The notes beneath the pieces are model-generated. The model worked only from the letters and a program-made list of their open reading frames with translations. It did no database searches and was not told where the DNA came from. From Escherichia coli (lineage in GTDB: Bacteria; Pseudomonadota; Gammaproteobacteria; Enterobacterales; Enterobacteriaceae): a stretch of DNA of 64,000 nt. The position numbers and the translations under genes are program-made. This document shows positions 26,131 to 26,957 of the stretch, one piece after another. The stretch lies in the NCBI RefSeq assembly GCF_011045215.1, contig NZ_CP049201.1, one strand, 5' to 3'. Position 1 is the first letter of the stretch. Each line of letters starts with the position of its first letter.

Positions 26131-26418
26131 TCACTGACTGCAATTTTTCGATCCAGGGTATTTTCTGAATGCCTTACCATTGGGCTGATGTAATCCCATC
26201 CCGGCATGTGCCCGGCTGATGGTTTCGCGCATCTCCCCGAAATTATCCTGCCTTGCTGGTGGGCGTGCTGCCCTGCGGATACATTCCGCGCGACGTTTTG
26301 CCGCCTGTTCCCGTGCCTTGTCATCATTCGCCAGCATGATGACCTCAGCCCACCGCGCCGCCGCTCTCCGGTACAGGCCACGCGCTTCCAGTGCTTCCGC
26401 TTTGCTGTCGTGAATCAT
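26131..26418 (-). CDS. PerC-like small regulatory protein (tentative)
   Basis: 95-aa ORF MIHDSKAEALEARGLYRRAAARWAEVIM...; motif recalled as PerC family, not search-verified; ATGA overlap with upstream gene. Confidence 0.4.
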   Translation of the reverse strand: MIHDSKAEALEARGLYRRAAARWAEVIMLANDDKAREQAAKRRAECIRRAARPPARQDNFGEMRETISRAHAGMGLHQPNGKAFRKYPGSKNCSQ

Positions 26419-26957
26419 GCGCCTGTTTTCTCCTTTGCTGCCCGGCGCTGACGTTTGCGCTTCTCATTCAGCGCCACCAGCCGCGTTTCTGCCTCCTGCT
26501 GTTCCTGTGGTGTCACCTCGCCGCACGGCTGGCCTTTCAGGTCGTAGCGTACCCCACCAGCCATTAAGGCGCGGTAATAGCGCGGACACTGTGCATAAGA
26601 TGCCAGCGTCGCACGCAATGCCCCTGGACCGAATGCCAGCCCCCTGACGGCGAGATCCTGCATCAGGTCGTCGAATATCCCCACCTTAAGCGGCTTCGGT
26701 ACTTCCCGGCTGAATAATTCAGGCCACAACTCAGTGAGGCGGTTAATGCGCCTGCGGTTTTTGCGCTGGCGCTTGGTCATATGCCGCCACGGTGTCGCCC
26801 CTGTGGGCTTCTGCTGCGCTTTCTGGTTACCGGGCATCACTTTATGCGCCGACGTGGTTTTATCCTGCTCCTGTGCCGCCTGCGTCGTTTTCTGCGGCGT
26901 GCCGTAAATGCCTTTCGGTTTTCTGTTAATGGTCAGCTTAGTCATGCTTTGCCCCAT
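26415..26957 (-). CDS. ProQ/FinO-domain RNA-binding protein
   Basis: 180-aa ORF; segments PLKVGIFDDL and LRATLASYAQCPRYYRALMAGGVRYDLKGQPCGEV parallel the chromosomal ProQ N-terminal domain; Lys/Arg-rich tails. Confidence 0.6.
   Translation of the reverse strand: MGQSMTKLTINRKPKGIYGTPQKTTQAAQEQDKTTSAHKVMPGNQKAQQKPTGATPWRHMTKRQRKNRRRINRLTELWPELFSREVPKPLKVGIFDDLMQDLAVRGLAFGPGALRATLASYAQCPRYYRALMAGGVRYDLKGQPCGEVTPQEQQEAETRLVALNEKRKRQRRAAKEKTGA

What the first reader, a model, noticed from the sequence alone, without database searches (positions are those of the whole stretch)
26415..26957. ProQ/FinO-domain RNA chaperone encoded on the island
The 180-aa protein has the conserved core blocks of the FinO/ProQ N-terminal domain (PLKVGIFDDL; YDLKGQPCGEV) flanked by Lys/Arg-rich tails. 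FinO-domain proteins are global or plasmid-specific RNA chaperones. A mobile copy could act on helper-phage or host small RNAs. It is co-transcribed with a PerC-like gene and preceded by the CCCCACTTTT repeat cluster.
Basis: partly seen in the sequence, partly recalled or inferred. Interest (0 to 1): 0.7.

Follow-up and report, generated by a model that had tools for sequence, protein, structure and literature searches.

The report
Satellite-island FinO-domain RNA-binding protein gene
The gene is a real FinO/ProQ-type RNA-binding protein, carried with a PerC regulator gene as an optional two-gene cassette on a small phage-satellite island. Databases already annotate it this way, but nobody knows which RNAs it acts on.

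Summary
ORF 26415..26957 (−) exists and contains both quoted motifs. It matches Pfam ProQ/FinO at E=1.2e-23 over almost the whole model. The predicted structure superposes on FinO, RocC and NMB1681. The 3'-end pocket residues (G93, Y127, R137) and the N-cap Arg (R115) are conserved, and dN/dS is 0.13–0.31.

It is not an orthologue of FinO, ProQ or FopA. It belongs to a separate lineage found in 1174 of 5426 complete E. coli genomes, always on the chromosome and already labelled "ProQ/FINO family protein".

The host element is a 12.4-kb PICI-type phage satellite inserted in comM, with the order int–alpA–icd-like–RgdR–primase–ori–finO–perC–packaging. The finO stop overlaps the perC start (ATGA) in 51 of 51 PerC-bearing loci, and tandem terminators follow perC. 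Co-transcription is therefore well supported.

The CCCCACTTTT repeats are not linked to finO. They are the origin iterons of one replication module and track its 115-aa gene.

finO is optional: 7 of 69 AlpA-matched islands carry it, and the prototype EcCICFT073 lacks it. No RNA partner specific to finO was found. A conserved SymR-like antisense RNA over the icd-like start codon is a plausible client, but 68 of 69 islands have it.

Verdict: new member of a known kind, of moderate interest.

The parts
26415..26945 (-). FinO-domain protein CDS with the most likely start (M5, 176 aa).
   Evidence: ORF. Homologues start at MTKLTINRK. PGAP annotates a 531-nt CDS in H1. dN/dS is 0.13-0.31.
26442..26759 (-). 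ProQ/FinO domain (residues 67-172). Pocket residues are G93, Y127 and R137; the N-cap is G110 with R115.
   Evidence: Pfam PF04352 E=1.2e-23, model 4-108/109. PDB phmmer hits ProQ, FinO, NMB1681 and RocC. AF2 pLDDT exceeds 90. The top 26 Foldseek hits are all FinO-domain structures.
26760..26945 (-). Disordered, basic N-terminal tail (residues 5-66), including the KRQRKNRRR patch.
   Evidence: pLDDT is below 50 for residues 1-53. The tail is under purifying selection, with omega 0.04-0.57.
26131..26418 (-). PerC-family gene, translationally coupled to finO (ATGA overlap at 26415-26418).
   Evidence: Pfam PF06069 E=7.2e-32, full length. The overlap is conserved in 51/51 loci. The window-type perC allele occurs only with finO.
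26051..26127 (-). Tandem terminator hairpins that end the finO-perC unit. HP1 is at 26125-26108 followed by U6. HP2 is at 26091-26061 followed by a U-tract, is flanked by A5, and so also reads as a terminator on the + strand.
   Evidence: Terminator scan. Fold energy -39.9 kcal/mol, z=-4.8. EcCICFT073 has the same architecture with a different sequence after its perC.
27099..27425 (.). AT-rich replication origin with CCCCACTTTT / AAAAGTGGGG iterons.
   Evidence: Repeats. GC is 0.405. The iterons follow the 115-aa gene in 13/13 loci, whatever the distance to finO. They are absent from loci that have >=95% identical finO but other replication modules. The ori layout was described for Gram-negative PICIs in PMC6092414.
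27424..27771 (-). 115-aa gene linked to the iterons; putative origin-recognition protein. In L040 it is fused to the C-terminus of a RepA helicase.
   Evidence: phrog_2850 C-terminal match. Fusion in L040. Iteron co-occurrence. No Pfam match.
28148..29896 (-). P4-family primase/helicase (replication module).
   Evidence: TIGR01613 at 109.3 bits, above its cutoff. phrog_864 E=7e-143.
31125..31197 (+). Candidate SymR-like cis-antisense RNA. It overlaps the RBS and ATG of the icd-like gene. It is a possible client of the FinO protein but is not specific to it.
   Evidence: RF01809 at 37 bits, below GA 61. Two stem-loops, z=-5.6. SL2 covariation supports the + strand. Present in 68/69 AlpA-matched islands and in EcCICFT073.
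30765..31130 (-). Icd-like gene, first gene of the island's replication operon.
   Evidence: PGAP annotation of the homologous region. phrog_6196/1743 matches to this stretch. Sequence read.
33407..33592 (-). alpA, the PICI master activator; 98% identical to EcCICFT073 AlpA.
   Evidence: tblastn. AlpA function in EcCICFT073 is described in PMC6092414.
33956..35206 (-). Tyrosine integrase.
   Evidence: phrog_1 E=7e-72.
22947..35369 (.). The whole island (about 12.4 kb) inserted in comM. The att core ATCCGCTATT lies at 22947-22956 and 35360-35369.
   Evidence: Direct repeat and the two comM halves.

Best explanation
The gene encodes a functional RNA-binding protein of the ProQ/FinO domain family. 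It belongs to a lineage confined to small chromosomal phage satellites (PICI-type islands) of E. coli and close relatives.

Shown here:
- It has the FinO fold.
- It keeps the pocket that grips the 3' end of a terminator hairpin (G93, Y127, R137) and the Arg of the helix N-cap (R115).
- It has conserved disordered basic tails.
- It evolves under purifying selection.
- It lies directly after the island's replication origin.
- It is translationally coupled to a PerC-family gene. The two travel as one optional cassette that ends at a tandem terminator.

Inferred from FinO, FopA, RocC and ProQ: the domain clamps the base and 3' tail of a Rho-independent terminator hairpin on one or a few structured RNAs. 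The basic tails then stabilise that RNA and speed its pairing with a target.

My best guess for the main client (about 0.3) is the island's own SymR-like antisense RNA. That RNA covers the RBS and start codon of the icd-like gene at the head of the replication operon. finO lies downstream of that operon, so it would reinforce antisense repression as a FinOP-like brake on satellite replication and expression. The client is not established.
For: Domain and fold:
- Pfam PF04352, E=1.2e-23.
- phmmer against the PDB: ProQ 7e-12, FinO 2e-10, NMB1681 and RocC.
- The AF2 domain has pLDDT above 90.
- The top 26 Foldseek hits are all FinO-domain structures; FinO superposes at rmsd 1.9 A and RocC at TM 0.84.

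Contact residues:
- RocC G52, R75, Y87 and R97 correspond to G93, R115, Y127 and R137. All four are invariant or at least 90% conserved in the subfamily (residue roles from PMC9674577).

Selection:
- Omega is 0.13-0.31.

Cassette:
- The ATGA overlap with perC is present in 51/51 PerC-bearing loci. In the other 19 loci the stop overlaps a different small ORF.
- FinO and PerC are adjacent in either order in diverged members.
- The window-type perC allele occurs only with finO: 3/3, against 0/32.
- Tandem terminators follow perC.

Island:
- It has int, alpA (98% identical to EcCICFT073), a primase, iteron ori and att repeats.

Candidate client RNA:
- It has two stem-loops with the anti-SD sequence in loop 1, z=-5.6.
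- SL2 is 93% paired with 3 compensatory pairs, and 17 G.U cells favour the antisense strand.
- A -10-like box sits 7 nt before a common 5' end.

Precedent:
- The characterised FinO-domain proteins on mobile elements (FinO, FopA) act mainly on an antisense RNA of their own element (PMC9977716, PMC7491321).
Against: - No experiment exists for this lineage.
- The N-cap differs from the canonical S-K-S/T-K. Ser is replaced by a conserved Gly and Lys by Pro or a variable residue. RocC K71D and K73D each lowered binding about 12-fold.
- The gene is dispensable for the satellite life cycle. Only 7/69 AlpA-matched islands carry it, and the mobilisable prototype EcCICFT073 lacks it.
- The proposed client RNA is in 68/69 islands, with or without finO.
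- Near-identical finO alleles sit with many different SL2 variants. Co-occurrence and co-variation therefore give no specific support.
- The antisense RNA's 3' tail (UUUCGUCGUUUC) is not a clean U-run.
- finO has no conserved private promoter. Its 5' flank is whichever ori precedes it, so when it is expressed is unknown.
Confidence: 0.6

Rival explanations
1. The FinO-PerC cassette is an outward-looking accessory module. Under this reading the protein acts in trans on host or helper-phage RNAs, alongside or in competition with host ProQ. PerC meanwhile acts on host or phage transcription. The cassette would modulate host physiology, virulence or the helper's development rather than the satellite's own genes.
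For: - finO is optional and sits in the accessory slot with perC.
- PICI PerC-family and RgdR proteins are documented to act on host LEE genes (PMC11773190, PMC6092414, PMC3378721).
- No island RNA is specific to finO-bearing islands.
- ProQ-type domains can be global binders (PMC9977716).
- Up to 9 copies occur per genome.
Against: - No candidate host or phage RNA was identified or could be tested here.
- Characterised mobile-element FinO proteins have mainly cis-encoded primary targets.
- True phages almost never carry this lineage (7 weak hits). That gives no hint of a phage-side partner.
Confidence: 0.28
2. The protein acts on its own messenger. It would bind the tandem terminator hairpins at the 3' end of the finO-perC mRNA and protect it from 3' exonucleases or polyadenylation. 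ProQ does this for many mRNA 3' ends. The effect would be to set PerC levels.
For: - Two strong hairpins with U-tracts follow perC directly, with A-rich flanks.
- Translational coupling ties FinO dosage to PerC dosage.
- ProQ is known to protect mRNA 3' ends (PMC12086684 abstract).
Against: - FinO-less EcCICFT073 has the same tandem-hairpin architecture after its perC.
- HP2 is missing or degenerate in several finO-bearing loci.
Confidence: 0.08
3. The protein is a replication accessory factor. It would bind primer RNA, RNA-DNA hybrids or single-stranded nucleic acid at the adjacent origin, acting with or in place of the SSB found in the same slot in other islands.
For: - The gene abuts the ori in every architecture.
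- In EcCICFT073 the same slot holds a hypothetical gene plus SSB.
- In capsid-forming PICIs the order is SSB then FinO.
Against: - No FinO-domain protein is known to act on DNA or in priming.
- The conserved residues are those that recognise an RNA 3' end, with 2'/3'-OH contacts.
- SSB and FinO co-occur in some islands, so they are not alternatives.
Confidence: 0.04

Closest known systems
FinO of F-like conjugative plasmids (FinOP fertility inhibition; PDB 1DVO)
   Same: - Same domain and fold: rmsd 1.9 A over 102 columns at 28% identity; phmmer 1.7e-10.
- Similar size (180 vs 186 aa).
- Basic extensions flank the domain.
- Encoded on a mobile element as an optional modulator.
- The element also carries a two-stem-loop antisense RNA over the RBS of a key operon's first gene.
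   Different: - Scores 63.8 bits against the NCBIfam FinO model, far below the 136-bit cutoff.
- Lies on a chromosomal phage satellite, never on a plasmid (0 plasmid places).
- There is no tra region and no FinP/traJ.
- The N-terminal region is unrelated and predicted disordered.
- The N-cap Ser is replaced by Gly.
FopA (YafB) of Salmonella pCol1B9, the chaperone of Inc antisense RNA
   Same: - Minimal architecture: a FinO domain plus a basic N-terminal region, with no ProQ C-terminal domain.
- Borne on a mobile element.
- Conserved Tyr and Arg (PMC7491321).
   Different: - Only 35% identity over 83 core residues, with no similarity in the N-terminal region.
- Different element type and neighbours.
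- FopA co-distributes with its Inc/repZ partner. No such exclusive partner was found here.
ProQ (chromosomal global RNA chaperone of enterobacteria; PDB 5NB9)
   Same: - Best sequence match among solved structures (6.9e-12).
- Pocket residues equivalent to G37, Y70 and R80, and R58, are conserved.
   Different: - Scores 58.1 bits against the equivalog cutoff of 127.
- Lacks the linker and the C-terminal Tudor-like domain. The protein ends after one long helix at residue 180.
- It is accessory and island-borne, with up to 9 copies per genome.
RocC (Legionella) and NMB1681 (Neisseria) FinO-domain proteins
   Same: - Same fold (TM up to 0.84 normalised to RocC).
- The RocC-RNA contact residues G52, R75, Y87 and R97 are conserved.
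- NMB1681 shares the PRYxxAL...GGxRxDL motif.
   Different: - 26-31% identity.
- The RocC N-cap S70/K71/K73 is not conserved.
- Different genomic setting and partners.
EcCICFT073-type Gram-negative PICIs (the host element)
   Same: - AlpA is 98% identical.
- Same gene order: int-alpA-icd-like-RgdR(DUF4222)-primase-iteron ori-accessory-perC-packaging.
- Same antisense element at icd.
- Tandem terminators after perC.
   Different: - EcCICFT073 has a hypothetical gene plus SSB where this island has finO.
- Its perC is only 52% identical.
- It has a different att site (ycfD-phoQ rather than comM).
- It has a different packaging module.

Membership tests
ProQ/FinO domain family (Pfam PF04352) | Significant full-length match to the family profile | tested here: met
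   E=1.2e-23, 83.6 bits, model positions 4-108 of 109.
ProQ/FinO domain family (Pfam PF04352) | FinO-domain three-dimensional fold | tested here: met
   In the AF2 model, residues 60-178 have pLDDT of about 90 or more. Foldseek ranks 1-26 are all FinO, RocC, NMB1681 or Lpp1663 structures at probability 1.00. This is a predicted structure, not a solved one.
ProQ/FinO domain family (Pfam PF04352) | 3'-nucleotide pocket: beta-turn Gly plus conserved Tyr and Arg (RocC G52, Y87, R97) | tested here: met
   G93, Y127 and R137 align to these positions. They are invariant or at least 90% conserved in 22 subfamily members.
ProQ/FinO domain family (Pfam PF04352) | Alpha-helical N-cap motif (RocC S70-K71-S72-K73-x-R75) | tested here: inconclusive
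   The motif position and the Arg (R115) are conserved. The cap Ser is a conserved Gly (G110), and the Lys positions are Pro/variable and Ala.
ProQ/FinO domain family (Pfam PF04352) | Binds terminator hairpin RNAs with a 3' tail | not testable with these tools
   Needs EMSA, ITC or CLIP.
FinO sensu stricto (fertility inhibition protein, NF010317) | Reaches the curated family score | tested here: not met
   63.8 bits against a cutoff of 136.
FinO sensu stricto (fertility inhibition protein, NF010317) | Encoded on a conjugative plasmid with FinP/traJ | tested here: not met
   All 1655 places in complete E. coli genomes are chromosomal. The context is a PICI.
ProQ (equivalog NF003434) | Reaches the curated score and has the C-terminal Tudor-like domain | tested here: not met
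   58.1 bits against a cutoff of 127. The protein ends at residue 180 after a single C-terminal helix.
FopA (YafB) branch | Sequence similarity beyond the FinO core, including the FopA N-terminal domain | tested here: not met
   35% identity over 83 core residues only.
Gram-negative PICI (host element) | int, alpA and pri/rep followed by an iteron ori flanking AT-rich DNA, transcribed in one direction | tested here: met
   Genes. alpA is 98% identical to EcCICFT073. Iterons and GC of 0.405.
Gram-negative PICI (host element) | Size about 10-15 kb, bounded by att direct repeats | tested here: met
   12.4 kb. A 10-bp core repeat lies at both junctions within split comM.
Gram-negative PICI (host element) | No tail or lysis genes | tested here: met
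   PHROG and NCBIfam scans of all island ORFs of 90 aa or more (plus the 65-aa ORF) found only head-morphogenesis and terS-like genes.
Gram-negative PICI (host element) | Helper-phage-dependent induction and packaging | not testable with these tools
   Experimental.
PerC family (PF06069), the neighbouring gene | Full-length profile match | tested here: met
   E=7.2e-32, model positions 1-89 of 90.
SymR RNA (RF01809), the candidate antisense RNA | Reaches the Rfam gathering score | tested here: not met
   37 bits against GA 61. It is SymR-like in layout only.

The most novel reading that the evidence does not exclude
Phage satellites may have their own FinOP-like system. In this reading the island FinO-domain protein binds the terminator stem-loop of a conserved SymR-like antisense RNA that masks the RBS of the first gene of the PICI replication operon. 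It would protect that RNA, perhaps at the invariant GGUUAGA spacer, and accelerate pairing. Islands carrying the finO-perC cassette would then be held more tightly silent, or be self-limiting after induction, compared with islands that rely on host ProQ or on no chaperone. This would be the first post-transcriptional control layer described for PICIs.
Probability: 0.2. Interest if true: 0.7.

Novelty: new member of a known kind. Interest (0 to 1): 0.4.

Why it matters
FinO-domain proteins are the third major class of bacterial RNA chaperones. Every characterised member on a mobile element controls that element's replication or transfer through an antisense RNA.

PICI regulation is currently described only at the level of transcription (AlpA) and protein interference. 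About a fifth of complete E. coli genomes carry this lineage, some in several copies, and it has never been studied.

If it works on a satellite RNA, it would add RNA-level control to satellite biology. If it works on host or helper RNAs, it would be a mobile competitor or extension of the ProQ regulon, physically linked to a virulence-associated PerC regulator. Both possibilities can be tested directly with CLIP and a deletion.

The study also corrects the reading of the repeat cluster, which is the ori. It also turns up a near-universal antisense RNA at the head of the PICI replication operon.

Tried and rejected
1. Repeat cluster as a FinO-linked regulatory element: rejected. The iterons track the 115-aa gene (13/13 loci) and are absent from loci with >=95% identical finO. 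Those loci have other iterons (GGTAGACAGTT or TCTACCCC) abutting the same start codon.

2. Orthology to FinO, ProQ or FopA: rejected.

3. A finO-specific partner RNA found by co-occurrence: not found.
   - The SymR-like asRNA is in 68/69 AlpA-matched islands and in EcCICFT073.
   - The perC tandem hairpins are also in EcCICFT073.
   - Identical finO alleles occur with many SL2 variants.

4. A known Rfam family on the window's island at gathering score: none. C4 and IsrK occur only in some related islands, such as L033.

5. A dedicated finO promoter: none is conserved. Promoter-like sites in the region are not above chance (16 found against 17.2 expected).

6. FinO replacing SSB: rejected, because the two co-occur in capsid-forming PICIs.

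7. FinO being RgdR: rejected. RgdR is the 99-aa DUF4222 protein upstream of the primase.

8. Defence-system role for neighbours: no PADLOC hits.

9. Pfam on the 115-aa protein: no match.

10. Literature: no paper in the library describes a PICI FinO-domain protein. The only mention is a passing 'putative ProQ/FinO-like regulator' in Vibrio satellite-plasmids.
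Full report
**Observation**

The window contains a 180-aa ORF on the minus strand at 26415..26957, exactly as reported. PLKVGIFDDL lies at residues 89-98 and YDLKGQPCGEV at residues 138-148. The flanks are basic: residues 55-73 are 47% K+R, the last 20 residues are 40% K+R, and the pI is 10.6.

The real start is probably the second ATG (M5, coordinate 26945), giving 176 aa. Nearly all homologues begin MTKLTINRK, and PGAP annotates a 531-nt CDS in a 97%-identical genome.

**Is it a FinO-domain protein?**

Yes.
- Pfam PF04352 (ProQ/FINO) matches residues 67-172 at E=1.2e-23, covering model positions 4-108 of 109.
- phmmer against PDB sequences finds ProQ-NTD (6.9e-12), FinO (1.7e-10), NMB1681, RocC and Lpp1663.
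- An AlphaFold2 model built on 22 subfamily sequences has pLDDT of about 90 or more for residues 60-178 and a disordered N-terminus, residues 1-53.
- Foldseek against the PDB returns only FinO-domain structures in ranks 1-26. FinO 1DVO superposes at rmsd 1.9 A, and RocC reaches TM 0.84 normalised to the target.

The RocC-RNA co-crystal paper (PMC9674577) defines the contact residues. RocC G52, Y87 and R97 form the pocket for the 3'-terminal nucleotide, and R75 belongs to the helix N-cap. These align to G93, Y127, R137 and R115, which are invariant or at least 90% conserved in the subfamily. The cap Ser and neighbouring Lys residues (RocC S70, K71, K73) are not kept. Here the motif reads G110-P-G-A-L-R115. 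This is a real difference within the family.

Pairwise dN/dS against 11 diverged alleles is 0.13-0.31. Both the domain and the disordered tail are constrained, so the gene is functional.

**Which FinO-domain protein?**

It is none of the named ones.
- It scores 63.8 bits on the NCBIfam FinO model (cutoff 136) and 58.1 bits on the ProQ equivalog (cutoff 127).
- It lacks ProQ's C-terminal domain.
- It shares only 35% identity over 83 core residues with FopA of pCol1B9.
- The best plasmid-borne relatives are at most 44% identical over the core.
- Only seven phage records match, all below 40% identity.

The lineage itself is common. blastn finds it in 1174 of 5426 complete E. coli genomes, with up to 9 places per genome. 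All 1655 places are chromosomal and annotated 'ProQ/FINO family protein'. Protein clusters also come from Shigella, Salmonella and Citrobacter. The domain assignment is therefore already in the databases.

**The element**

The gene lies in a 12.4-kb island that splits comM. A 10-bp att core (ATCCGCTATT) sits at 22947-22956 and at 35360-35369. All island genes read on the minus strand, in this order:
- integrase;
- alpA, 98% identical to the experimentally characterised activator of EcCICFT073;
- an Ant-like gene;
- an icd-like gene;
- a 127-aa ORF;
- a DUF4222 gene, which is RgdR (PMC3378721);
- a P4-family primase;
- a 115-aa gene;
- an AT-rich iteron region;
- finO;
- perC;
- a small regulator-like gene;
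- two head-morphogenesis-related genes (phrog_6216 / DUF2213);
- a terS-like gene.

This is the layout published for Gram-negative PICIs (PMC6092414). Seventy IMG/VR contigs, mostly 10-16 kb long, carry the gene in the same position. They have mosaic integrase, replication and packaging modules. Some are capsid-forming PICIs with the order RepA – ori – hypothetical – SSB – finO – small ORF – major capsid – protease – portal. The most diverged members (59% identity) also sit in int–AlpA–rep–(SSB) islands.

**The repeat cluster**

CCCCACTTTT and its complement occur six times between 27106 and 27424. They are not a property of finO.
- In 13 of 13 loci that have the 115-aa gene, these iterons (AAAGTGGGG, or the one-base variant AAAGTGAGG) lie directly 3' of that gene. 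The distance from there to finO ranges from 470 to 1666 nt.
- Loci with >=95% identical finO but another replication module lack them. They have other iterons (GGTAGACAGTT or TCTACCCC), which run to within about 12 nt of the same start codon.

The repeats are therefore the origin of one replication module. [quoted passage not shown] One consequence is that finO has no conserved promoter of its own. It is either read through from the replication operon or transcribed from within the AT-rich ori. The promoter scan is not above chance.

**The PerC link**

The neighbour is a full-length PerC-family gene (PF06069, E=7e-32).
- The finO stop and perC start overlap as ATGA in 51 of 51 PerC-bearing loci. 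In the other 19 complete loci the stop overlaps the start of another small ORF.
- In diverged members the two genes remain adjacent in either order.
- In an AlpA-anchored sample, the window-type perC allele occurs only with finO (3/3), and the CFT073-type allele only without it (32/32).
- The pair ends at tandem hairpins: HP1 plus U6, an A-rich spacer, then HP2 plus a U-tract (z=-4.8).

finO and perC are thus one co-transcribed, translationally coupled cassette. EcCICFT073 has the same hairpin architecture after its perC, with a different sequence. The terminators therefore belong to perC, not to finO.

**Searching for a partner RNA**

Characterised mobile-element FinO proteins serve an antisense RNA of their own element (PMC9977716, PMC7491321), so I looked for one here.

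Rfam gives a sub-threshold SymR-like hit at 31125-31197 on the plus strand (37 bits, GA 61). It lies exactly antisense to the RBS and ATG of the icd-like gene, which is the first gene of the replication operon.
- It folds into two stem-loops with the anti-SD sequence CUCCU in loop 1 (z=-5.6).
- Across islands the terminator-like SL2 is 93% paired and has three compensatory pairs. The covariation score is 0.33, against 0.13 for shuffles (0 of 500 as high).
- Seventeen G.U cells would be C.A mismatches on the other strand, so the antisense strand is the one that folds.
- Two alternative 5' domains both keep a -10-like GGTATGMT box 7 nt before a shared AGC 5' end.

This geometry resembles FinP/traJ. 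The element is not specific to finO, however. It is present in the FinO-less EcCICFT073 and in 68 of 69 AlpA-anchored islands. Only 7 of those 69 carry finO. Identical finO alleles also sit with many SL2 variants. It remains a plausible client. By comparison, FinP exists in F-like plasmids whether or not finO is intact (my own knowledge). The comparative data neither single it out nor exclude it.

**Mechanism**

Three things are shown: a conserved FinO fold with an intact 3'-end pocket, conserved basic tails, and a coupled cassette with PerC placed after the ori.

The rest is inferred. The protein would clamp the base and 3' tail of a terminator hairpin on a structured RNA and stabilise or match-make it. 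I rate the readings as follows:
- about 0.3: the island antisense RNA is the main client, giving a FinOP-like brake on the satellite;
- about 0.28: trans action on host or helper RNAs together with PerC;
- about 0.08: protection of its own mRNA 3' end;
- about 0.04: a replication-accessory role suggested by the SSB neighbourhood.

finO is absent from most PICIs, including a fully mobilisable one. It is therefore a modulator, not a core life-cycle gene.

**Novelty**

The domain call is already in RefSeq. FinO-domain genes on mobile DNA are an established theme. No paper in the searchable library describes or tests a PICI-borne FinO-domain protein. The nearest is a passing mention in Vibrio satellite-plasmids (PMC13230959).

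I class it as a new, uncharacterised member of a known kind, of moderate interest. The repeat-cluster association does not.

Noticed in passing
window 31125-31197 (+); also L072 about 3790-3860 (minus strand of that locus): A conserved SymR-like cis-antisense RNA overlaps the RBS and ATG of the icd-like first gene of the PICI replication operon. It has two stem-loops, the anti-SD sequence in loop 1, an invariant GGUUAGA spacer and a covarying SL2. It is present in 68/69 AlpA-matched islands and in EcCICFT073. I found no description of it in the searchable literature.
   Followed up: partly
window 30765-32558 (-): A 597-codon open frame starts with an ATG that overlaps the ant stop. It runs antisense through the YlcI/YnfO gene (31331-31629 +). 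Only its last ~120 aa, the icd-like part, have homologues. L009 keeps the whole frame at 94% identity. Whether the long frame is translated is unexplained.
   Followed up: partly
window 26051-26127 (-) and L072 8228-8300: perC genes of different alleles are each followed by the same architecture: hairpin plus U6, an A-rich spacer, then a second hairpin flanked by A and U runs, which is bidirectional. The sequences differ. In L069 the second hairpin has a U-tail only on the opposite strand. This suggests a convergent transcript ends there.
   Followed up: partly
window 27424-27771 (-); L040 5683-7098: The 115-aa gene next to the iterons is a free-standing ORF after a primase in the window. In capsid-forming PICIs it is the C-terminal domain of a RepA-family helicase. 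Its alleles go with iteron variants AAAGTGGGG or AAAGTGAGG. It has no Pfam family. It is probably a portable origin-recognition domain.
   Followed up: partly
window 22947-22956 / 35360-35369 and 23027-23052 / 35207-35232: The island splits comM at about codon 58 with a 10-bp att core. A separate, perfect 26-bp direct repeat (AATTAACTACACCATTAACTACACCG, itself a tandem 13-mer) lies just inside each end. These may be arm-type integrase or excisionase sites.
   Followed up: no
L033 3794-3992 (+); L015 1240-1307 (+): Some finO-bearing islands carry bona fide IsrK (80 bits) and C4 antisense RNA (76 bits) with a1/b1 target sites. One has the int-alpA RNA motif (39 bits, above GA). These satellites are rich in small structured RNAs.
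   Followed up: no
window 24396-25725 (-): The DUF2213 protein (223 aa) and the upstream 197-aa protein match different parts (115-328 and 402-544) of one 545-aa PHROG family (phrog_6216). Their order is the reverse of that in the fused protein. RefSeq labels the 197-aa homologue 'NUDIX hydrolase', which the profile hits do not support.
   Followed up: no
window 29893-30183 (-): The 96-aa DUF4222 ORF upstream of the primase corresponds to RgdR (ECs1581/C1493). RgdR is the PICI-borne regulator of type III secretion described in EHEC. This island therefore carries both RgdR-type and PerC-type regulators.
   Followed up: partly
window 25953-26050 (-): The promoter region of the 65-aa gene after the terminators contains two palindromes (CAACGATGTAGATCGTTG and CAATCATAATCATTG-like). 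They are conserved across islands and also occur in EcCICFT073. They are probably operators for the packaging-module promoter.
   Followed up: no
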